Shown here: positions 324 through 8,682 of the stretch, piece by piece
Layout of the letters: the number at the start of each line of letters is the position of its first letter
Numbering within the stretch: the first letter of the stretch is position 1
Source: Oligoflexia bacterium
GTDB taxonomy: Bacteria > Myxococcota_A > UBA796 > UBA2385
Assembly (NCBI GenBank): GCA_013152105.1
Contig: JAADHA010000514.1
Coordinates: forward strand, 1 to 24,279
Direction of reading: 5' to 3'
Length of the DNA stretch: 24,279 nucleotides
Program-made: the position numbers and the translations under genes
Notes under the pieces: generated by a model
The model's database searches: none
Seen by the model: the letters and a program-made list of their open reading frames with translations, nothing else
What the model was told of the DNA's origin: nothing

Positions 324-1310
324 TCAGGGCAACCGGATGCCGGCCTTGTCGGCGATGGCCCGGGTCAACTGACGAAAGTCCTCGCCACACTTCCGAGCGG
401 CAGCGCCGCGGGAGCCAAGCGCGCCGTCGGCCGGCTTGAGGTGGAAGATGGGCTTGCGGGCCTCTATTGCCATGGGCATCAGGCTGCGGTAGTGCTTGAG
501 CTGGGCGAGGCAGTGGGGGTCCTTGTCGACTTTCACCACGTCCGCCGAAGGCTCGTCCAGCACAGAGCCCCGATACTCCGACGGGATCCTGGCCATCCAC
601 TTCGCATTGGCTCGCATCGGTCGATCCAGTCGCACGTTGTGCTGGAGGACGACATACCCGGCGGGTGCCATCGCCCCGGTTGGGAGATCCAGGTCTCGTG
701 GTGCCTTTTGGCGGCGTTCAGCCCAGCCCTCTCGCCAGTCGCGCAGGGCGGGGCCAAGGTTACGCAGCCCTTGGAGCGAGAACAGGTCCGGTGCGAGGGG
801 CATGACCACGTGGTCGGTTCCAAGCAGGGCCGCGCGCTTGATGGCGCCCAGGTTTGGACCCACATCGATGAGCACGATCTCGGTACCACGTGCCTCGGCC
901 GCCATGAGCATCATCCGGTAGAAGGCCGTCAGCATTCGGAAGGCGGCTTCGTCCTGGTCGAGGCAGCGGTGCCAGTCCTGGGAGAGGCGATCCTCGATGC
1001 GGGAGAGACCCAGGTCTCCCACGACCAGGCCGATGGCGTCGCTGATCTCCTCGACATGGGGCTGGCGCACATCGCCAAGCCCCCGCAGAATCGGCCCGAC
1101 CGCACCGAGCACAGTGTCGACGTGATCGTCGTCCGGCCACAGCTTCGCCAAGCGCTCTTCTTCCAGGAACATCGACGTGAGGTTGGCCTGGGGATCGAGA
1201 TCGGCGACCACGACATCGACCCCGAGGTCGGCCAGTGTCCAGGCCACGTGGTAGACCAGGGTGCTCTTGCCCACGCCGCCCTTGTTGTTGAAGAAGGCGA
1301 TGGTGTTCAT
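324..1310 (-). CDS. ParA/MinD-family ATPase (328 aa)
   Basis: Deviant Walker A NNKGGVGKST, ADLDPQANLT motif, Walker B IVLIDVGP and PLAPDLFSLQGL. The C-terminus HYRSLMPMAIEARKPIFHL is typical of the non-partitioning ParA subfamily. The ATG overlaps the upstream stop (ATGA at 1310-1307). Confidence 0.92.
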   Translation of the reverse strand: MNTIAFFNNKGGVGKSTLVYHVAWTLADLGVDVVVADLDPQANLTSMFLEEERLAKLWPDDDHVDTVLGAVGPILRGLGDVRQPHVEEISDAIGLVVGDLGLSRIEDRLSQDWHRCLDQDEAAFRMLTAFYRMMLMAAEARGTEIVLIDVGPNLGAIKRAALLGTDHVVMPLAPDLFSLQGLRNLGPALRDWREGWAERRQKAPRDLDLPTGAMAPAGYVVLQHNVRLDRPMRANAKWMARIPSEYRGSVLDEPSADVVKVDKDPHCLAQLKHYRSLMPMAIEARKPIFHLKPADGALGSRGAAARKCGEDFRQLTRAIADKAGIRLP

Positions 1311-2065
1311 GATCTCCGCCTGACGGTGACGAGCGTGGCGCTTTGCGAGAGCGAGAACTCCGGTGGAGGGTTGCCGTTGTCTCGCAGCAGTCGCCTGGAG
1401 AGGGGGATCCCGTAGCCGAAGCGCTGGACGTAGCCGAGGTTGGCCATGGCTTCCGCCACCAGGGGGTTGCGATAGTCGGTCGCGCCACTGCCGAAGTTGT
1501 CCAGAGTCACCTGCCCGAAGGGGCCGCCGGGGTTGTGGATCTCGACGCGATCATCGAACCAGTAGATGCGAACGGGGGCGTTGCTGGTCTCGTAGTTGCG
1601 ATGGATCAGGGCGTTGCGGGCGAGCTGCTGCAAGGCCGCCAGGGGGTAGTCGCGGACGCGTGACTCGGTCGCCCCGCCTGCGATGTCGACGGCGGTGGAG
1701 ACATTGAGCTTCAGCAGGCCGTCGAGCCGATGAACGACTTCGTACAGCGGACCGGACAGATCGTGGTCGTCCTTGATGGGGTCGCCCAGCTCGGTGCCGT
1801 CGATGCGCAGGAACACCAGGTACGCGCCGGGGACGAAGCTCCTCGGGTCCTTCCCCAGGACCAGGATGGCACCGTAGGTAGGCAGATAGCCAGACAGCAA
1901 GCGCAGGGACTCAAGGCGTTCCTGGACGGTTCGTTGGTTGTGACGGAGCACATCCGCATCGACTGCCGCGGGGAGGTAATTGCTCTTGAAGTAGGCAAGG
2001 TCGAGATCGTCCAGGCCCGAGCCGTCGGCTGGACGCCGGTCGAAGGGCTGGCTTCGGTGACTCAT
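1307..2065 (-). CDS. RecG-C/HATPase_c_4-type ATP-binding protein lacking the N-terminal Schlafen/AlbA_2 domain (252 aa)
   Basis: Motifs YPLAALQQLARNALIHRNY, RVEIHNPGG, YRNPLVAEAM and GYVQRFGYG. ATG at 2065 has GAGGAG just upstream. It begins at the PFD..P...LDDLD segment that normally follows the AlbA_2 domain. It could be a truncated remnant. Confidence 0.8.
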   Translation of the reverse strand: MSHRSQPFDRRPADGSGLDDLDLAYFKSNYLPAAVDADVLRHNQRTVQERLESLRLLSGYLPTYGAILVLGKDPRSFVPGAYLVFLRIDGTELGDPIKDDHDLSGPLYEVVHRLDGLLKLNVSTAVDIAGGATESRVRDYPLAALQQLARNALIHRNYETSNAPVRIYWFDDRVEIHNPGGPFGQVTLDNFGSGATDYRNPLVAEAMANLGYVQRFGYGIPLSRRLLRDNGNPPPEFSLSQSATLVTVRRRS

Positions 2066-2143
2066 GCCGGTGCTCCTCTCTTCCTGCTTGCCCTGCGGCG
2101 CCGGCCCGCAGCCCCAGATCCCCATGAGCCCCCCACCCGAGCG

Positions 2144-4228
2144 TCAGTGACCGGGGGCCAGCGTGGTCTCGAAGGTCCAGTAGTCGGCGGGATCACTCAG
2201 CGCGAAGGTCATCGTGTGCAGCCCGCGAGAGATGCAGCCCAGAAAGTCGGGGTCTACATCGGCTGGTTCCAGTGCGGTGAGGCCCTGAACATGACCGCTG
2301 AAGCCCACGAATGCCCGCAGCTTGATGCTGCTTGGTGCGTCTGCATGGGCGGTGAAGCAGGTGTCGAACATGGCGCGCGAGACTTGGAGTTGTTCCTGGA
2401 CAGCGGCCGCCGAGAGGGTGACGCCTTCTTGGCTCTTCGTGGGCTGGAAGAGGGGCTGGTCCAGTTCAAGGTGGGGCTGTACAGAAATGGGGTGATCTGG
2501 CTTTGGGTCCACCACGTCCTGGAAGGGCTGGAAGCCGTCGAGGGACACGGTGAGCCGCACGGGACCGGGTGGGAGCTGGTCGCCCTGGAAGGTGTGCGGG
2601 CCGACTCCGACCAGGACATCGTTGAGGTACACGACGGCCGTCGGTGGATCGGGGTCCACCTGAAGGAGTCGTTGGCTGGAATTGGGTTGGGTGCTGACTT
2701 GGTAGGCCAGCCGCCCGGCTCCCCAGAGCGTGAGCGCGCCCACCGCCACCAGGCCGGCGATGAGCAGGACCCGTGGAACCCGCTCGCGCTCGACATCCAA
2801 GGTGACGGTCACTCGCGGACCATGGGATGGCACGATTGTCACGATGCTGCTGCCGCGTTGGCGGGGCATCCGATCTGGATGAACGGTCGCCGTGATCTGG
2901 TGCTGGGTCTGTCCGGCGTCCAGCCGCTCGGGATTGACGGTGACCCAGTCGCGATCCGCCATGATGCGGCCGGTGGTGGGCCCGGTTCCGACCTGCTTGA
3001 GTCGAATGGTGACGGAGCGGTTTCGCCTGCCGACGCGTAGGCTGTACTGGTTGGGAGTGAGCAGTTCGACGCAAGTTCCACTGCGCTGTGAGCCGAGAGA
3101 CAGGGTCTTACCGGTGATACGCTCGGGCGGTCGAGGAATGCTCAGCACCGAGGGTTTTGGCGGTGTGGACCCGGGATTGGACCGGATGGCGGCCATGAGG
3201 TGGGACGCGGGGACCGGTGGGATCGTGCCAGGTGGCTGTGTGACGGGACGTTTGCCAGGTGATGGTCGTCTGGGCTGGGACTGTGGTGGAGCGGAGATCG
3301 TGCGTGCACCGGGGGGGGCGCTGCTACCCGAGCGCTCGAGTCTGATGGGTGGGAGGGTCCCGGGCGGTTCGGTCGTGTCGCGCCGCTTCTTGTCCTTTGC
3401 AGATGAACTTCCGCCAAAGGAGACAAAATTGAGACTGGGCAGCGAGGGCTCCTGGTCCGCGCTGGCCTGGCTCGGCTCGTTGGTGGGCGGTCGCAGGAAG
3501 CCGTCGGTAGGGTCCAAATCAAAGGCAGAGGCAGCAGGAAAATGGGCCCGGTACTTGTCGTCATAGGCGGCACGCCGAGTCGGGTCCTTCAGGTCTCGGA
3601 GCGCTGCGTCGATGCGGGAATACTCGTCTCGCGATCGTCGCGTGTCGGACAAGGTGCGTGCCCAGCGGTACTTTTCTCGGTACGCGTGGTCGATCTCGTC
3701 TGGTGTGGCGGAGATCGGGACTCCCAGGACCAGGTAGTGGTTGGGGAAGTCGTCGGGGGGCGCACTGCCGCTGGCTGCACCGCCGCTGGTGTCGATGCCG
3801 TGTTCCTTGGCGAGGGACTGGATTTGCTGGCGCACGGCGCTTTCCTTCAAGCCGAGCTTCTTGCCCTGAGCGAGGATGGCGGCTTCGCCGGCTGGGGTGA
3901 GCGAGCCGCTGGCCAGCGTGCCCCGGATGAAGAGAGACAGGACCTCGAGACCGCGGGTCTGCTCGTGGTCGGCGAGATAGTCGATATACTGCTGGCGCGC
4001 GTCCATCAGCGATCCGCGCAGCAGGCGGATGTTCTTGATCACCCAGATCGCTTCGCCACGGTACTTGGGATTGGCTTGTTGGCCCTGGGCCCAGGCGCGG
4101 CGGCTCTTGATCGCTTGTTCGGCTTCGCCCGCAGGAGCCTGTGGGTCGAACGACAGGTAGTCGAACAACGAGGTCTTTCCCACTGTCGTGAGGAAGCGGG
4201 TGATTTCTTCGAAGTCGCGCTCGTTCAT
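2144..4228 (-). CDS. Single-pass membrane protein: J-like domain, TerB-like helical segment, J-like domain, Pro-rich linker, Ig/BACON-like domain, TM helix, PEGA, AgmX/PglI (TonB-C-like) C-terminal domain
   Basis: The J fold is clear at 3742-3551 (NHYLVLGVPISATPDEIDHAY...DLKDPTRRAAYDDKY) but has no HPD. TM helix VLLIAGLVAVGALTLWGAG at ~2770-2714 is preceded by RERVPR. PEGA pattern LQVDPDPPTAVVYLNDVLVG..P...L.PG...L.V...GF. C-terminal VQEQLQVSRAMFDTCF...F.GCI..L..M.F. Start is ATG 4228 or TTG 4264 (ORF track). Confidence 0.8.
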   Translation of the reverse strand: MNERDFEEITRFLTTVGKTSLFDYLSFDPQAPAGEAEQAIKSRRAWAQGQQANPKYRGEAIWVIKNIRLLRGSLMDARQQYIDYLADHEQTRGLEVLSLFIRGTLASGSLTPAGEAAILAQGKKLGLKESAVRQQIQSLAKEHGIDTSGGAASGSAPPDDFPNHYLVLGVPISATPDEIDHAYREKYRWARTLSDTRRSRDEYSRIDAALRDLKDPTRRAAYDDKYRAHFPAASAFDLDPTDGFLRPPTNEPSQASADQEPSLPSLNFVSFGGSSSAKDKKRRDTTEPPGTLPPIRLERSGSSAPPGARTISAPPQSQPRRPSPGKRPVTQPPGTIPPVPASHLMAAIRSNPGSTPPKPSVLSIPRPPERITGKTLSLGSQRSGTCVELLTPNQYSLRVGRRNRSVTIRLKQVGTGPTTGRIMADRDWVTVNPERLDAGQTQHQITATVHPDRMPRQRGSSIVTIVPSHGPRVTVTLDVERERVPRVLLIAGLVAVGALTLWGAGRLAYQVSTQPNSSQRLLQVDPDPPTAVVYLNDVLVGVGPHTFQGDQLPPGPVRLTVSLDGFQPFQDVVDPKPDHPISVQPHLELDQPLFQPTKSQEGVTLSAAAVQEQLQVSRAMFDTCFTAHADAPSSIKLRAFVGFSGHVQGLTALEPADVDPDFLGCISRGLHTMTFALSDPADYWTFETTLAPGH

Positions 4229-4267
4229 GTCCGCCAGCGGCGTCGCCTGGTTCACGTTGGCCAAGGC

Positions 4268-4330: not shown

Positions 4331-6112
4331 TTAACTGACTTGGGCCCGGTTCACGTTCTCGAAAGCGCGGGACAGATCGTCCTGTCCGAGGCCGCCGCGG
4401 AGGCTGATCTCGGCGCTACGCGTGGCCTGTGTCTCGACATCGACGACGTCGACTTCCAGGATCTGATTGACGCCGTATCGATAGCTGACCTCGATGACCG
4501 TGCCCCGAGGCCGGGGTGGCAGCTTGTCGAGGATCACCTCGCCGATGACCTTGACTTCGGCGCGTGAGCCGCCTTCACCCTCGGTTACTTCGACGCGCAC
4601 GGCGGTCATATTGTCGTAGGCATAGGCGAAGCGACCGTGTTTCTCGCAGGGAAGCGGGGTCGCCGATGGGATGATCGGCACCACGCGTTCGCGGAGCTGC
4701 TTGTCCAGGACGACGATACCCAGCGTGTGGCTGGTGATATCCGTGACCTTTACGTTCGGGATTCCGACGGTGGTGCGGCCGATTTCGTTGGTGAACGGGT
4801 TGGAGGCTGACCGCCCATGCCTGGAGCGTTCCGGAGCGGGTTCCAGCGTGGGCGTCAGGTCGTGTTCGAGGTGGCTGGGTTCGGTTGGCGCGGGTACCGG
4901 CAGGGGTGCCGGTAGGGGTGCCGGTAGGGGTGCCGGCAGGGGTGCCGGTCGGGGTGCCGGCGCGTCCTGGCTTGGAGAGGCTGCGCGCCTGCGCCCGACC
5001 GCGCGATGGGCCAGCGCTTGCCGATGGGCGAGCAGCGCCGGGTGCGAGGGGCGGTGTCGCAGCACGCCTGCCAGGGCAGCGCCCAGCGCCACGCACTCGT
5101 CGGGGTTGACGCCCAGGGCCGCTTCCTGACCCGACATTGTACGCAGCCGCTGACTGATCATCGGCATGCGTGTCGAGCCCCCCACCAGCAGGACCTCGTC
5201 CAGATCCCCCCACCCGACGCCGGAACGCTTGAGCACCAGATCGCAGGTCTCCGCACACTGCTCGACCAGGTCTGCCGTCATCGCCTCGAACTCTTCCCGC
5301 ATGACGCTGACCACCATGCGGTTCCCCTTGTAGGTGACGGGGATCACGGCCCGCTCGCGGCTCGACAGGGAGATCTTGGCGTGCAGACAGCGTTCGTAGA
5401 GTTCCTGGTAGCGGTGTGGGTCATCGCGCGGATCAGAGCCGAACTTGCTGACGAATTCCTCGGAGACGTGGTTCACCAGCCGGTCGTCCCAGTCCTTTCC
5501 CCCCAGCTCGGCGTTGCCATCGCTGGCTACGGTGCGAAACGACACGCCCGTGATCTCCATCAGCGTCACGTCAAAGGTGCCTCCGCCCAGGTCGAAGACC
5601 ATCAGGCGGCGGTCCTGGCCCAGCCGCTCGATGCCGTAGGCGATCGCGGCCGTGGTCGGCTCGTTGATGATGGACAGCACATTGAGGCCAGCGAGCTTCC
5701 CGGCTTCGGCGGTGGCACCGCGCTGGGCGCTGTTGAAGTAGGCGGGCACCGTGACCACCGCGTCGCAGACGGCTTTTCCGAGCGCTTCTTCAGCGTCTTC
5801 CTTCATCTTTCGCAAGATGATGGCCGAGAGTTCTTGGGGGGTGTAGGTCCTGCCGAAGAACTCCAAGGAGAAGTCGGGTTCGCCCATGGTGCGCTTGATG
5901 AAGCGCACGACATTGGTCGGATCGACGACCACCATCTTGACCGCTTCTTCGCCGACAACACAAGCGTCGCGATGGTAGAAGTGAATCACCGAGGGCGTGG
6001 TCGGGTGACCGTCGGCGTTGGGGACGATCACCGGCTTGCCGAAGCGATCGACAATTGCCATGGCCGAGAAGGTCGTGCCAAGGTCGATGCCCATGACCAG
6101 ATCGCTGTTCAT
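4331..6112 (-). CDS. Hsp70-family protein, lidless, with ~100 aa Pro-rich insertion before the interdomain linker (593 aa)
   Basis: GIDLGTT, TVPAYF, INEPTTAAIAYG, VFDLGGGTFDV, LVGGSTRMP and NPDECVALGAAL are present. The SBD-beta runs DITSHTLG...LPPRPRG...YRYGVNQILEV. The protein ends about 20 aa later. ATG 6112 lies 13 nt after the grpE stop. Confidence 0.93.
   Translation of the reverse strand: MNSDLVMGIDLGTTFSAMAIVDRFGKPVIVPNADGHPTTPSVIHFYHRDACVVGEEAVKMVVVDPTNVVRFIKRTMGEPDFSLEFFGRTYTPQELSAIILRKMKEDAEEALGKAVCDAVVTVPAYFNSAQRGATAEAGKLAGLNVLSIINEPTTAAIAYGIERLGQDRRLMVFDLGGGTFDVTLMEITGVSFRTVASDGNAELGGKDWDDRLVNHVSEEFVSKFGSDPRDDPHRYQELYERCLHAKISLSSRERAVIPVTYKGNRMVVSVMREEFEAMTADLVEQCAETCDLVLKRSGVGWGDLDEVLLVGGSTRMPMISQRLRTMSGQEAALGVNPDECVALGAALAGVLRHRPSHPALLAHRQALAHRAVGRRRAASPSQDAPAPRPAPLPAPLPAPLPAPLPVPAPTEPSHLEHDLTPTLEPAPERSRHGRSASNPFTNEIGRTTVGIPNVKVTDITSHTLGIVVLDKQLRERVVPIIPSATPLPCEKHGRFAYAYDNMTAVRVEVTEGEGGSRAEVKVIGEVILDKLPPRPRGTVIEVSYRYGVNQILEVDVVDVETQATRSAEISLRGGLGQDDLSRAFENVNRAQVS
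4897..4960. repeat. 12-bp tandem repeat, about 5 copies, in frame (PAPL units)
   Basis: Units CCGGYAGGGGTG start at 4897, 4909, 4921 and 4933, CCGGTCGGGGTG at 4945, plus a partial CCGG. They encode PAPRPAPLPAPLPAPLPAPLP. Confidence 0.9.
5082..5109. repeat. 28-bp perfect direct repeat shared by the two Hsp70 genes (other copy 7658-7685)
   Basis: CCCAGCGCCACGCACTCGTCGGGGTTGA is identical at 5082-5109 and 7658-7685, encoding NPDECVALG. Confidence 0.85.
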
Positions 6113-6125
6113 GGGCGGTCCGTCT

Positions 6126-6671
6126 TCACTTGCCACCCGACGTCTCCGAGCCAGTAGCGCGACCAGGCTCGAAGCGATTGATCACGACTTCTTCGGGTCG
6201 CAGGATCCGCTCGCCCCGGGTGAAGCCCCGCTTCAGGACCTGGCGCACGACATAGTCCTTGAGCTTGTCGTTGGCGTAGACGACCTTGATGGCCTTTTGG
6301 GTCTCGCGATCGAACTTGTCCTTGCTCTCCATGGGCAGGACGTCTCGGCGGTAGAGCAGCTCGAGGAACTCGTCGATCAGGTACTGAAAGCTGTCCGCGA
6401 TCACCTCGGCGCTCATCTCTTGCTTTACCAGGCTTTGCTGGAACCAGTTGAGGCTGTCGTAGAACAACAGCAGGTCGAGCAAGAGCGGCTTCTCCATCTG
6501 GTAGATGAAGTCGTCCTTGTACTGCCGAAGCTCTTCGTAGAGGGCATCAAAGGCACGCTGCTGGACATCGTCGCGCTTGGCCTGCTGGTCGACGAAGTCG
6601 CGCAGGCTGTCGACTTCGTCGCTCTGGACGTCGATCGAGTAGTCCTGCTCAGGTGTCTGGTTGTCTGCCAC
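6126..6671 (-). CDS. grpE: GrpE-family nucleotide exchange factor (181 aa)
   Basis: Coiled-coil N-terminus, KPLLLDLLLFYDSL, KFDRETQKAIKVV and the C-terminal VRQVLKRGFTRGERILRPEEVVI. GTG start with AGGAG overlapping the upstream TAG stop. Confidence 0.85.
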   Translation of the reverse strand: MADNQTPEQDYSIDVQSDEVDSLRDFVDQQAKRDDVQQRAFDALYEELRQYKDDFIYQMEKPLLLDLLLFYDSLNWFQQSLVKQEMSAEVIADSFQYLIDEFLELLYRRDVLPMESKDKFDRETQKAIKVVYANDKLKDYVVRQVLKRGFTRGERILRPEEVVINRFEPGRATGSETSGGK

Positions 6672-6681
6672 GGGCTGACTC

Positions 6682-8682
6682 CTAGCTTGGGTCGCTCAGC
6701 TCGGTCGCGAGGTTGATGAAGGTGCCTTCCAATTCCACGCTCTGGTTGCAGTGGTGGTAGTCGGAAGGGCGCGAGCACAAGCCCATCAGGAATTCCTGAT
6801 GGACCTGTCTGCCCACGCCGATGGCGACGATGCGGCCCCCGGTGCGGCGGATGCGCTGGCTCTCTGCCATGGTCGCGGCCGGATCGTCAGGGTGCCCGTC
6901 CGCCAGGATGACCACGACGCGCTGGGCCCCCGAGTTGCTCTTGAGAGCCTTGCGGGCCTGTTGCAGCCCCAGCGCCATGGGCGTGGACCCGATGGGGCTC
7001 AGGCCACTGAGCGCGGCGTGCAGCGCGTCTCGATCCTGGGTTGGCGCGGCACGAAGCCCGCCAGGGAAGGCGATGACGGCGATGTGTCGGGAACGGTCCA
7101 GGGTGCGGTCGACGAAGGCCAGGGCGGCCGCGCGGGCGTCCCGGATATTGCTGCCGTACATCGATCCCGAGCAGTCCATCACCAGCGCGATGTGCATGGG
7201 CACACGATTGCTGGCCAGGTCTTCCAGGGTCACGCCGCCCTGCGCCAGACGGTGGGCCAGCGTCTGGCCGGTGTTGAGGTCCATTGCTTCGACTTCGACG
7301 ATGCCGTTTGCGTTGTAGCGGTAGGTCACAGCGAGCTGTGTAGCGCCAGCGGGCCGGGGCGGGATCCCGTAGAACTCGAAATGCCCGAGCACATTGCAAT
7401 TCAGCGGGTCGGGGTTTTCGCCTTGGACCAGCCACAGGTCCATCGTGGACTGACCGTCGTGGGTCGTGACGTAGTTGTCGCGCGTGTGTTCGCATGGAAT
7501 GCGGCTGTTGCGCCGGATGATCGGGCTGTTGTGCATCTTGTTGTCGCGGTACACGACCATGCCCAGGCTGTGGCTGGTGACGTCGTGGGTGCGGATGTCG
7601 ATCGGTGGTCGGTCGCCAGTGAGTCGTGCGCTCTCCAGGGCCGCGGTGAGCGCCGCACCCAGCGCCACGCACTCGTCGGGGTTGATGTCAGTGGCGGGCT
7701 CGCGCTGAAACAGGCGCCGGATCAGCTCGCGCACCATGGGCATGCGGGTTGATCCACCGGCCAACAAGACCGTGTCGATGTCCTGGGGGCGAACCTTGGC
7801 GTCGTCCATGACATCCAGGGTCAAGGCTTCGCAGCGGCCGAGCAAGCCGATCGACAGATCCTCGAAGATCTCACGGGTGATGGACTGCCGCAGGATCTGG
7901 CCCTGGAAGTCATAAAAAATGTTGACCTTTGGGCGACGCGAGAGGCTGAGCTTGGCGCTTACACACTTCTGGCGCAGGTCGTGGTAGGCGACCAGGTCGT
8001 CGAGGGGGTCGACGCCGTGTTTCAGACTGAACTCGTGCGCGACGTAGCGCATCAGCGCGTCATCCCAGTCCTTTCCGCCGAGCTGATGGTCGCCGGTGCT
8101 GGCCAGCACGTTGATGTCGTTGCCGCGAATGTCGACGATGGTCACATCAAAGGTGCCACCGCCAAGGTCGAAGACCAGGCACTTCATGTCCTGGCCCTGG
8201 TGGGCCAGTCCGTAGGCGAAGGCGGCCGCGGTGGGTTCGTTGACCAGCTTGAGGACCTGGAGACCGGCCAGCTCGCCGGCCCGGATCGTGGCGCGGCGCT
8301 GCCGGTCGCCGAAGTAGGCTGGAACCGTCACGACCGCCTGTTCGATGCTGTGCCCCATGCGGTGTTCGGCGTCGTGCTTGAGTCGGGCCAGGATGAAGCT
8401 GGACAGCTTTTCGGGGCTGTACTGTTCGCCGCGGTACTCAAAGCTGAAGTCGTCGGGGCCCATGTGGCGCTTGATGAACTCAACCACCTGGTTTGGAAAC
8501 GCGATCGCGGCCTGCTTGGCGTAGTTTCCGACGATGATGTCGTCGCCGTCAAAGAGCAGGACGGATGGGGTGATCCGGTCCCCCTCGGCGTTGGCGAGGA
8601 TCTCCGGTACACCGTGCTTGTTGACGTGGGCGATGGCCGAGTAGGTCGTGCCCAGGTCGATGCCGACAGCTCGGATACTCAT
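6682..8682 (-). CDS. Hsp70-vWA fusion protein (666 aa)
   Basis: Hsp70 motifs GIDLGTT, VPAYF, VNEPTAAAFAYG, DLGGGTFDV, LAGGSTRMP and DVTSHSLG. These are followed by a vWA domain (~7200-6685) with MIDAS DCSGS, GSTP and ILADG. ATG 8682 has a TAAGGAG SD. Confidence 0.93.
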   Translation of the reverse strand: MSIRAVGIDLGTTYSAIAHVNKHGVPEILANAEGDRITPSVLLFDGDDIIVGNYAKQAAIAFPNQVVEFIKRHMGPDDFSFEYRGEQYSPEKLSSFILARLKHDAEHRMGHSIEQAVVTVPAYFGDRQRRATIRAGELAGLQVLKLVNEPTAAAFAYGLAHQGQDMKCLVFDLGGGTFDVTIVDIRGNDINVLASTGDHQLGGKDWDDALMRYVAHEFSLKHGVDPLDDLVAYHDLRQKCVSAKLSLSRRPKVNIFYDFQGQILRQSITREIFEDLSIGLLGRCEALTLDVMDDAKVRPQDIDTVLLAGGSTRMPMVRELIRRLFQREPATDINPDECVALGAALTAALESARLTGDRPPIDIRTHDVTSHSLGMVVYRDNKMHNSPIIRRNSRIPCEHTRDNYVTTHDGQSTMDLWLVQGENPDPLNCNVLGHFEFYGIPPRPAGATQLAVTYRYNANGIVEVEAMDLNTGQTLAHRLAQGGVTLEDLASNRVPMHIALVMDCSGSMYGSNIRDARAAALAFVDRTLDRSRHIAVIAFPGGLRAAPTQDRDALHAALSGLSPIGSTPMALGLQQARKALKSNSGAQRVVVILADGHPDDPAATMAESQRIRRTGGRIVAIGVGRQVHQEFLMGLCSRPSDYHHCNQSVELEGTFINLATELSDPS

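What the first reader, a model, noticed from the sequence alone, without database searches (positions are those of the whole stretch)
3551..4171. Two HPD-less J-like domains sharing a WA signature, matched by R167 substitutions in both Hsp70s
Seen: domain 2 (3742-3551) has AYREKYRWARTL where DnaJ has AYKRLAMKYHPD, so HPD is replaced by RTL. Domain 1 (~4171-3974) has AIKSRRAWAQGQ, with WA in the same register, which suggests an internal duplication. At the DnaK R167 position (VKRIINEPT) the Hsp70s read VLKLVNEPT (K) and VLSIINEPT (S). Established: the HPD Asp contacts DnaK R167 (R167H is an allele-specific suppressor of DnaJ D35N), and HPD-less J-like proteins such as Pam16/Tim16 do not stimulate ATPase. 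Inference: this is either a co-evolved orthogonal J-Hsp70 interface insulated from housekeeping DnaK/DnaJ (possibly one J-like domain per Hsp70) or an inhibitory/tethering role.
Basis: partly seen in the sequence, partly recalled or inferred. Interest (0 to 1): 0.65.

Follow-up and report, generated by a model that had tools for sequence, protein, structure and literature searches.

The report
HPD-less J-like domains, rewired Hsp70s
A membrane protein of a myxobacterial lineage carries two J-type co-chaperone domains that lack the normally essential HPD motif, and the two Hsp70 chaperones encoded beside it have changed the residues that HPD normally touches, so this looks like a private chaperone pairing that is conserved rather than decayed.

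Summary
All quoted motifs sit at the stated coordinates. Domain 2 is a clear J-domain homologue without HPD. Domain 1 has no Pfam match, but its predicted fold matches J domains and its profile aligns to domain 2 with WA in register.

This is not local decay. The four-gene cassette (Hsp70-vWA, GrpE-like, Hsp70, J-like membrane protein) recurs in about 55 loci. It was found in 47 of 59 genomes of one Myxococcota order and in none of about 340 others sampled in the phylum. Position 167 is Ser in every second Hsp70, and Lys, Ala or Ser (once Arg) in the vWA-Hsp70. All eight other Hsp70 paralogues of this genome keep Arg. Other HPD-contact residues are also replaced, while catalytic residues are intact.

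The emphasis needs correcting:
- WA is not the core signature. A sister clade has Y-M there, and domain 2's Trp varies.
- The near-invariant element is the domain 1 loop QG[QM]QxNPK, at the HPD position.
- Domain 2 is dispensable in some relatives.
- No covariation with position 167 was found.

Domain 1 also occurs fused to methyltransferases.

The scan noted similar HPD-less J-like/lidless Hsp70 modules before on other DNA. I did not test those notes.

The parts
2144..4228 (-). Gene for the J-like membrane protein (694 aa from the ATG at 4228). Order of parts: domain 1, three-helix subdomain, domain 2, disordered Pro-rich linker, Ig-like domain, one TM helix, PEGA domain, C-terminal alpha/beta domain.
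   Evidence: All homologues start at MNERDF.
3968..4180 (-). Domain 1 (residues 17-87): a divergent J-fold domain with no Pfam model.
   Evidence: Model pLDDT 93.8. J domains are the matches for this part. hhalign to domain 2 gives 92%. No Pfam hit in 43 members.
4058..4093 (-). Domain 1 signature WAQGQQANPKYR (end of helix II plus the helix II-III loop). Q48-G49-Q50 fall on H-P-D in an ungapped register.
   Evidence: WAQ.QQ.NPK (W46 A47 Q48 Q50 Q51 N53 P54 K55) is invariant in the 43-sequence alignment. G49 is >=90% and position 52 is A or S. QG[QM]QxNPK is kept in the sister clade. Register.
3794..3967 (-). Three-helix subdomain after domain 1 (residues 88-145), weakly TerB-like.
   Evidence: generic three-helix matches; TerB-family 2ou3 at Z 6.2. 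(weak DjlA-N/TerB lead at 0.78).
3551..3742 (-). Domain 2 (residues 163-226): a J-domain homologue whose HPD loop is collapsed to a four-residue turn (TLSD).
   Evidence: Secondary structure.
3644..3670 (-). Domain 2 motif YRWARTLSD, which replaces KYHPD.
4331..6112 (-). Hsp70-B: lidless, with a Pro-rich insert. S at DnaK position 167 (codon 5672-5674).
6126..6671 (-). GrpE-like nucleotide exchange factor.
   Evidence: PF01025, E 2.5e-13. Syntenic in all full cassettes.
6682..8682 (-). Hsp70-A with a C-terminal vWA domain. K at DnaK position 167 (codon 8248-8250).

Best explanation
The cytoplasmic N-terminus of this single-pass membrane protein carries the private J-equivalent of the cassette's two Hsp70s. 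Domain 1 is a J-fold domain whose HPD loop has been replaced by the near-invariant loop QG[QM]QxNPK. I propose that it docks at the usual J site (the junction of NBD, linker and SBD-beta) on Hsp70s whose side of that site has been rebuilt. The rebuilt positions are R167 to S or K/A, Q378 to A or T, a polar linker in place of LLL, D477 to R, and D479/D481 to N. The canonical Asp35-Arg167 switch cannot operate here, so recruitment to the membrane, and probably triggering of hydrolysis, would run through a different and mostly uncharged contact. That would insulate the system from housekeeping DnaK/DnaJ. Domain 2 is a more ordinary J domain with a collapsed loop and is an accessory element. Shown: the folds and homologies, the conservation patterns, the synteny, and the retained catalytic residues. 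Inferred: physical docking at the J site, insulation from DnaK/DnaJ, and ATPase triggering.
For: (1) The cassette Hsp70-vWA / GrpE / Hsp70 / J-like is syntenic in 32 of 46 genome loci, plus 6 more cut by a contig end, and in about 19 metagenome loci of a sister clade. (2) Neither domain has HPD in any close homologue. The domain 1 loop residues Q48, Q50, Q51, N53, P54 and K55 are invariant in 43 sequences, and QG[QM]QxNPK persists at ~30% overall identity. Conservation that tight at the HPD position argues for a functional contact rather than decay. (3) Position 167 is S in 36/36 syntenic Hsp70-B and in 119/120 nearest clusters. It is K17/A11/S3 in Hsp70-A. All 8 other Hsp70 paralogues of this genome have R167, and 10 J domains of this genome have HPD. 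(4) The residues that Mayer 2021 (PMC8215388) lists as contacting HPD or the J domain are changed to new conserved states. Q378 becomes A (36/36) or T (30/31). L390-392 becomes R-T-H or polar-I/V-T. E217 becomes R/K in Hsp70-B. D477 becomes R. P419 and all catalytic residues (D8, K70, E171, D194, T199, D201) are kept. (5) Between the two clades, the domain 1 motif change (WAQGQQ to YMQGMQ) coincides with changes at Hsp70-B interface positions 217, 392, 477 and 481, but not in Hsp70-A. (6) The domain 1 module also occurs at the N-terminus of other proteins, such as SAM methyltransferase fusions, in genomes that hold the cassette. This mirrors how J domains are distributed among class C J-proteins.
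Against: Structural matches of domain 1 to J domains are modest (Z about 6, Foldseek E > 1), and its direct profile match to canonical J domains is weak (38%). The loop is invariant, so residue covariation cannot be used. The clade contrast in point 5 is a single evolutionary split. Position 167 drifts in Hsp70-A (K/A/S, and R in one genome), which looks like relaxed constraint rather than a tuned contact. The rebuilt Hsp70 residues also form the intramolecular NBD-SBD-beta clamp, so they could have changed for reasons unrelated to a J partner. In canonical systems, H-to-Q and D-to-N changes in HPD abolish stimulation.
Confidence: 0.4

Rival explanations
1. Pam16-like tether or brake. The J-like domains bind the cognate Hsp70s and hold them at the membrane protein, but they do not trigger ATP hydrolysis. 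Hydrolysis would be set by substrate, or the domains would even inhibit it.
For: HPD-less J-like domains such as Pam16/Tim16 do not stimulate Hsp70 (established knowledge). The Asp35-Arg167 switch is missing on both sides. The protein is membrane-anchored with its J-like domains on the cytoplasmic side. Domain 2's loop is reduced to a four-residue turn.
Against: A mere tether would be expected to tolerate variation, yet the domain 1 loop is as invariant as HPD is in real J domains. The cassette holds no HPD-bearing partner J domain for a Pam16/Pam18-type pair.
Confidence: 0.25
2. The J fold has been repurposed and no longer contacts Hsp70 at the J site. Domain 1 would be a protein-interaction or assembly module, for example for the vWA domain, for self-association or for another partner. 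The Hsp70 changes would then reflect a J-independent cycle of lidless Hsp70s.
For: The changed Hsp70 residues (167, 393-side linker, 477-481) also form the intramolecular clamp (PMC8215388, PMC7289447). Both Hsp70s lack the lid and have polar linkers. Position 167 drifts in Hsp70-A. Domain 1 has an extra N-terminal helix and a fused three-helix subdomain not seen in J domains.
Against: There is strict synteny with two Hsp70s and a GrpE. A basic helix II is retained in both domains (K41/R43/R44 and R184/R188/R191). The domain 1 motif and the Hsp70-B interface change together between clades.
Confidence: 0.25
3. Local or lineage-specific decay. The J domains and the Hsp70s are degenerating paralogues under relaxed selection.
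For: Domain 2's HPD region is hypervariable in the sister clade. Two distant relatives still show HPD there (P0134 and P0142).
Against: The Hsp70s are 57-88% identical across loci with all catalytic residues intact. The domain 1 motif is near-invariant. The cassette was found in 47 of 59 genomes of the order. There are no frameshifts or stops.
Confidence: 0.03

Closest known systems
Canonical DnaJ J domain with DnaK (E. coli; complex structure 5NRO as summarised in PMC8215388)
   Same: Domain 2 is a sequence homologue (E 3e-12 to solved J domains, including 5nro_B). Domain 1 shares the helix I-IV fold. Both keep a basic helix II. The genes sit beside Hsp70 and GrpE genes.
   Different: Neither domain has HPD. 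The partner Hsp70s lack R167 and Q378 and have a polar linker, so the Asp35-Arg167 trigger cannot work. There are two tandem J-type domains in one membrane protein.
Pam16/Tim16 (with Pam18/Tim14) J-like regulator of mitochondrial Hsp70
   Same: A J fold without HPD, attached to a membrane complex, with two J-type domains acting side by side on a dedicated Hsp70.
   Different: There is no HPD-bearing partner domain here. No detectable sequence relation exists (no PF03656 hit). The partner Hsp70s themselves are rewired, whereas mtHsp70 is canonical.
HscC with DjlB/DjlC, and HscA with HscB (specialised bacterial Hsp70/J pairs)
   Same: A dedicated Hsp70 with its own, partly membrane-anchored, J partner that does not cross-react with DnaK/DnaJ (PMC8215388).
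   Different: Those J partners keep HPD or HPE (PMC10410713). They have one Hsp70, not two, no GrpE and no vWA fusion.
DjlA (TM + TerB-like domain + J domain)
   Same: A membrane-anchored J-protein with a helical TerB-type domain next to the J domain. The three-helix subdomain here gives weak TerB leads.
   Different: DjlA has an N-terminal TM helix and a canonical HPD. The TerB relation here is not established.
HSP70-GrpE theme of GAP1-N2 GTPase conflict systems (Kaur et al. 2020, PMC7159879)
   Same: An extra Hsp70 plus GrpE plus a DnaJ-domain protein in one neighbourhood, sometimes with a second Hsp70.
   Different: No GTPase, tubulin or effector genes are present here. The flanks are housekeeping genes (rpsA-like S1, queA, tgt, secDF, rseP). 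That paper's theme is mostly in actinobacteria and firmicutes.

Membership tests
J domain (Pfam PF00226) | Four-helix J fold with a helix II - loop - helix III hairpin | tested here: met
   Domain 2: PF00226 at 28.4 bits, profile E 3e-12 to solved J domains, hhalign 98.9%. Domain 1: fold level only (Z 5.7-6.5, rmsd 2.4-3.3 A), 92% to domain 2, and only 38% directly to canonical J domains.
J domain (Pfam PF00226) | Invariant His-Pro-Asp between helices II and III | tested here: not met
   Domain 1 has Q-G-Q(Q-A-N-P-K) and domain 2 has R-T-L(S-D) or a deletion there. HPD is absent in all 43 close homologues. HPD is present in 10 other J domains of the same genome.
J domain (Pfam PF00226) | Basic face of helix II | tested here: met
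   K41, R43 and R44 (domain 1) and R184, R188 and R191 (domain 2) are invariant or nearly so.
J domain (Pfam PF00226) | Stimulates the ATPase of a partner Hsp70 | not testable with these tools
   Needs biochemistry. Only gene adjacency to two Hsp70s is shown.
J-like proteins of the Pam16/Tim16 kind | J fold lacking HPD | tested here: met
   As in the rows above.
J-like proteins of the Pam16/Tim16 kind | Works paired with an HPD-bearing J protein (Pam18) | tested here: not met
   No HPD-bearing J domain lies in the four-gene cassette or in the window next to it. A partner encoded elsewhere is not excluded.
J-like proteins of the Pam16/Tim16 kind | Sequence membership in the Pam16 family | tested here: inconclusive
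   No Pam16 hit at E <= 0.1 in Pfam. No profile-profile test was run.
DjlA-type co-chaperone | TerB-like domain next to a J domain with HPD | tested here: not met
   The TerB likeness is weak (Z 6.2 to 2ou3; atlas 0.78; Pfam TerB E 0.008 in one relative). HPD is absent.
Hsp70 (PF00012), for the two partners | Catalytic and nucleotide-binding residues (D8, K70, E171, D194, T199, D201) | tested here: met
   All are conserved in 31 Hsp70-A and 36 Hsp70-B sequences.
Hsp70 (PF00012), for the two partners | J-domain contact set R167, Q378, L391, D477 (PMC8215388) | tested here: not met
   R167 is S (B) or K/A/S (A). Q378 is A or T. L391 is I/V or T. D477 is R.

The most novel reading that the evidence does not exclude
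Domain 1 defines a second, HPD-independent way of coupling a J-fold co-chaperone to Hsp70. An invariant QG[QM]QxNPK loop would trigger ATP hydrolysis in Hsp70s that have no Arg167 switch. This would form a fully orthogonal chaperone network with several clients or adaptors (the membrane protein, methyltransferase fusions) inside cells that also run canonical DnaK/DnaJ.
Probability: 0.3. Interest if true: 0.8.

Novelty: new variant of a known kind. Interest (0 to 1): 0.62.

Why it matters
HPD and its partner Arg167 are treated as universal requirements for J-domain action on Hsp70. Large surveys of J-proteins even discard sequences without HPD (PMC10410713).

Here a whole bacterial order keeps a cassette in which both sides of that contact are replaced by new conserved residues, while the ATPase core stays intact. 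If domain 1 does act on these Hsp70s, three things would follow:
- The J fold can drive or hold Hsp70 through different chemistry.
- It would give a natural example of an insulated chaperone circuit.
- It would provide a defined loop motif and a small set of Hsp70 positions that can be tested by mutation.

If domain 1 does not act on them, the case shows how J folds are recycled for other uses.

Tried and rejected
Genomic context came instead from the search for related loci and the genome search.
- The fold search with the full-length model was swamped by the Ig-like domain. I therefore modelled domain 1 alone.
- The domain 1 profile found nothing significant against solved-structure sequences. 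It had no Pfam hit in 43 members and no named cluster in the protein atlas.
- Foldseek E-values for domain 1 were all above 1. Only the consistent identity of the low-rmsd hits and the VIA search support the J fold.
- The covariation test between Hsp70-A position 167 (K/A/S) and domain 2's Trp or domain 1 residues showed no pattern beyond phylogeny.
- I tested the idea that HPD in domain 2 goes with R167. It fails both ways. L054 has HPD with K and S at 167. G152 has R167 in Hsp70-A with ISD in domain 2.
- A defence-island reading is rejected for this locus, because the flanks are housekeeping genes.
- Five literature searches found no description of this cassette or motif.
Full report
**What is at the site.**
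The minus strand of the window carries four co-oriented genes:
- Hsp70 with a C-terminal vWA domain (6682-8682, here Hsp70-A).
- A GrpE-like gene (6126-6671).
- A second Hsp70 (4331-6112, Hsp70-B).
- A 694-residue protein (2144-4228).

All homologues of the last protein begin at MNERDF, so its start is the ATG at 4228 and not the TTG at 4264. The quoted strings are all present. AIKSRRAWAQGQ lies in domain 1, AYREKYRWARTL in domain 2, VLKLVNEPT in Hsp70-A and VLSIINEPT in Hsp70-B. Alignment to E. coli DnaK (locus L047) confirms that the K and the S fall on position 167.

**Are both domains J-like?**
Domain 2 (residues 163-226) clearly is:
- It reaches the Pfam DnaJ cut-off (28.4 against 27.8 bits).
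- A profile of 43 orthologues matches solved J domains at E 3e-12, including DnaJ of the DnaK complex 5nro_B.
- It matches the ten HPD-bearing J domains of this same genome at hhalign probability 98.9%.
- The aligners place a one- to three-residue deletion at HPD.
- In the AlphaFold model the helix II-III loop is only four residues long, TLSD.

Domain 1 has no Pfam match in any of 43 members and no sequence match to solved structures. Modelled alone with 43 sequences it folds with pLDDT 93.8. An exhaustive structural comparison gave J domains in nine of the ten listed rows that cover residues ~10-87. These include Ydj1, HscB, ERdj5, DNAJB8 and mitoribosomal mL77, at Z 5.7-6.5 and rmsd 2.4-3.3 A over 61-70 residues. 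Foldseek listed the same family, but with E above 1.

The domain 1 profile aligns to domain 2 at 92% probability (E 6e-7) with WAQ over WAR. It aligns weakly (38%) but in the same register to canonical J domains. I accept domain 1 as a very divergent J fold. It has an extra N-terminal helix and is followed by a three-helix subdomain with only weak TerB-like leads.

**Conserved or decayed?**
Conserved.
- A scan of one genome per species found 46 loci, nearly all Myxococcota MAGs, several under plainly wrong taxonomic labels. The complete four-gene order is present in 32 of them and cut by a contig end in six more.
- A more distant branch of the J-like protein (about 30% identity) has the same cassette in about 19 metagenome loci.
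- A search of 401 genomes of the phylum found the domain 1 module in 47 of 59 genomes of the window's own order. It found none in the roughly 340 genomes sampled outside that order.
- The flanks in the window are housekeeping genes (S1 protein, queA, tgt, secD/F, rseP), so this is not a defence island.

**The J side.**
No close homologue has HPD in either domain. In domain 1 the residues W46, A47, Q48, Q50, Q51, N53, P54 and K55 are invariant in 43 sequences. In the distant branch the motif reads RRKYMQGMQSNPKY, so W and A are replaced while QG.Q.NPK stays. In an ungapped register Q48-G49-Q50 lie on H-P-D, and N53-P54 probably correspond to the NP of the common HPDxNP.

Domain 2 is less constrained:
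- Its Trp is Q, S, A or K in 9 of 43 close relatives.
- The motif is unrecognisable in L024 and L038.
- The loop is hypervariable in the distant branch, and two representatives there even show HPD.

So the WA signature is a feature of one clade. The real signature is the domain 1 loop.

**The Hsp70 side.**
- Position 167 is S in 36 of 36 syntenic Hsp70-B and in 119 of the 120 nearest protein clusters.
- In Hsp70-A it is K (17), A (11) or S (3). It is K in the distant branch and R in one genome (G152).
- All eight other Hsp70 paralogues of this genome have R.

Mayer's review (PMC8215388) lists the J contacts. H33 contacts the L391 backbone, P34 contacts P419, and D35 contacts R167 and Q378. Basic J residues contact E206, D211, E217 and D477. 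D481 clamps R167/I168. Tomiczek et al. (PMC7289447) describe R167 switching between D481/D393 and D35.

| DnaK position | Hsp70-A | Hsp70-B |
|---|---|---|
| Q378 | T (30/31) | A (36/36) |
| L390-392 | R-T-H | polar-I/V-T |
| E217 | T/N/S | R/K |
| D477 | R | R |
| D479 and D481 | N | T/N/G and N |
| P419, D393 | kept | kept |

All catalytic residues (D8, K70, E171, D194, T199, D201) are kept as well. These are new fixed states in active-looking ATPases, not drift.

- Position 167 of Hsp70-A does not covary with any domain 2 or domain 1 variant.
- A relative with HPD in domain 2 still has K and S at 167 (L054).
- The genome with R167 in Hsp70-A has ISD in domain 2.

So 'one domain per Hsp70' and a 167-linked code are not supported.

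One contrast is suggestive. Between the WAQGQQ clade and the YMQGMQ clade, Hsp70-B differs at interface positions 217 (R/K against S/T), 392 (T against E), 477 (R against S) and 481 (N against D). Hsp70-A is unchanged at all of them. The YMQGMQ clade also gains a basic residue just before the motif. This is a single split and therefore weak, but it points to domain 1 pairing with Hsp70-B.

**A further observation.**
The domain 1 module is portable. Many genomes of the order have two or three copies. Some are N-terminal fusions to SAM methyltransferase domains with no Hsp70 gene within 10 kb (L076 and L077; L082 and L084 in genomes that also hold the cassette). Ordinary J domains are spread over class C J-proteins in the same way, which fits a recruiting module acting in trans.

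**Reading.**
The best-supported view is a private J-Hsp70 pairing with both sides rebuilt. Domain 1 is the active element and domain 2 an accessory. I cannot tell whether domain 1 triggers hydrolysis, only tethers (Pam16-like), or has left the Hsp70 J site altogether. The invariance of its loop makes me lean to a functional contact. I found no paper describing this cassette or motif. The nearest published theme is the HSP70-GrpE-DnaJ neighbourhood of GAP1-N2 GTPase systems (PMC7159879), which differs in context.

Earlier notes of this scan report similar lidless-Hsp70/HPD-less J-like modules in other genomes. I did not test those and do not count them as evidence.

Noticed in passing
L076:9929-11326, L077:3698-5038, L082:7444-8808(-), L084:7002-8498(-): The domain 1 module (with the QxMQxNPK loop) also occurs as the N-terminus of 445-500-residue proteins. 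In L076 and L077 the rest is a SAM methyltransferase domain by Pfam (L082 and L084 not scanned). L076 has no Hsp70 gene within 10 kb. L082 and L084 come from genomes that also have the cassette.
   Followed up: partly
L083:8635-9828 (genome G102): A second domain-1-bearing protein (397 aa, WAQAQQSNPKYR) without a recognisable domain 2. It seems to repeat the helical subdomain instead.
   Followed up: no
window 4331-6112 (Hsp70-B) and its orthologues: The DnaK clamp pair K414-D326 is charge-swapped in most Hsp70-B sequences (E at 414, K/R at 326). Hsp70-A keeps R/K414 and D326. This suggests that SBD-beta still docks on the NBD in Hsp70-B.
   Followed up: partly
window 4331-8682 (both Hsp70s): DnaK N13 in the phosphate-1 loop is F or Y in all Hsp70-A and Hsp70-B sequences. 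Six of the eight other paralogues of the genome have N (H and C in the other two).
   Followed up: no
L086:5017-7017 (genome G152, a 9.4-Mb single-contig genome): The only vWA-Hsp70 seen that keeps Arg at position 167. Its J-like partner still lacks HPD (ISD in domain 2).
   Followed up: partly
L010, L013, L044, and L004, L005 and others: Record titles of several MAG contigs that carry this Myxococcota-type cassette name Klebsiella pneumoniae or Enterobacterales. These look like mislabelled submissions.
   Followed up: no
window 324-2125 (-): Directly downstream of the cassette lie a 272-aa protein with only an HATPase_c_4 (RecG C-terminal-like) domain and a ParA-type ATPase. Whether they belong to the cassette was not examined.
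   Followed up: no
L008, L025, L029, L043, L045: Some J-like homologues have no Hsp70 gene in the 2-10 kb available upstream. L045 also has a different region after domain 1. The cassette may be split in some genomes.
   Followed up: no
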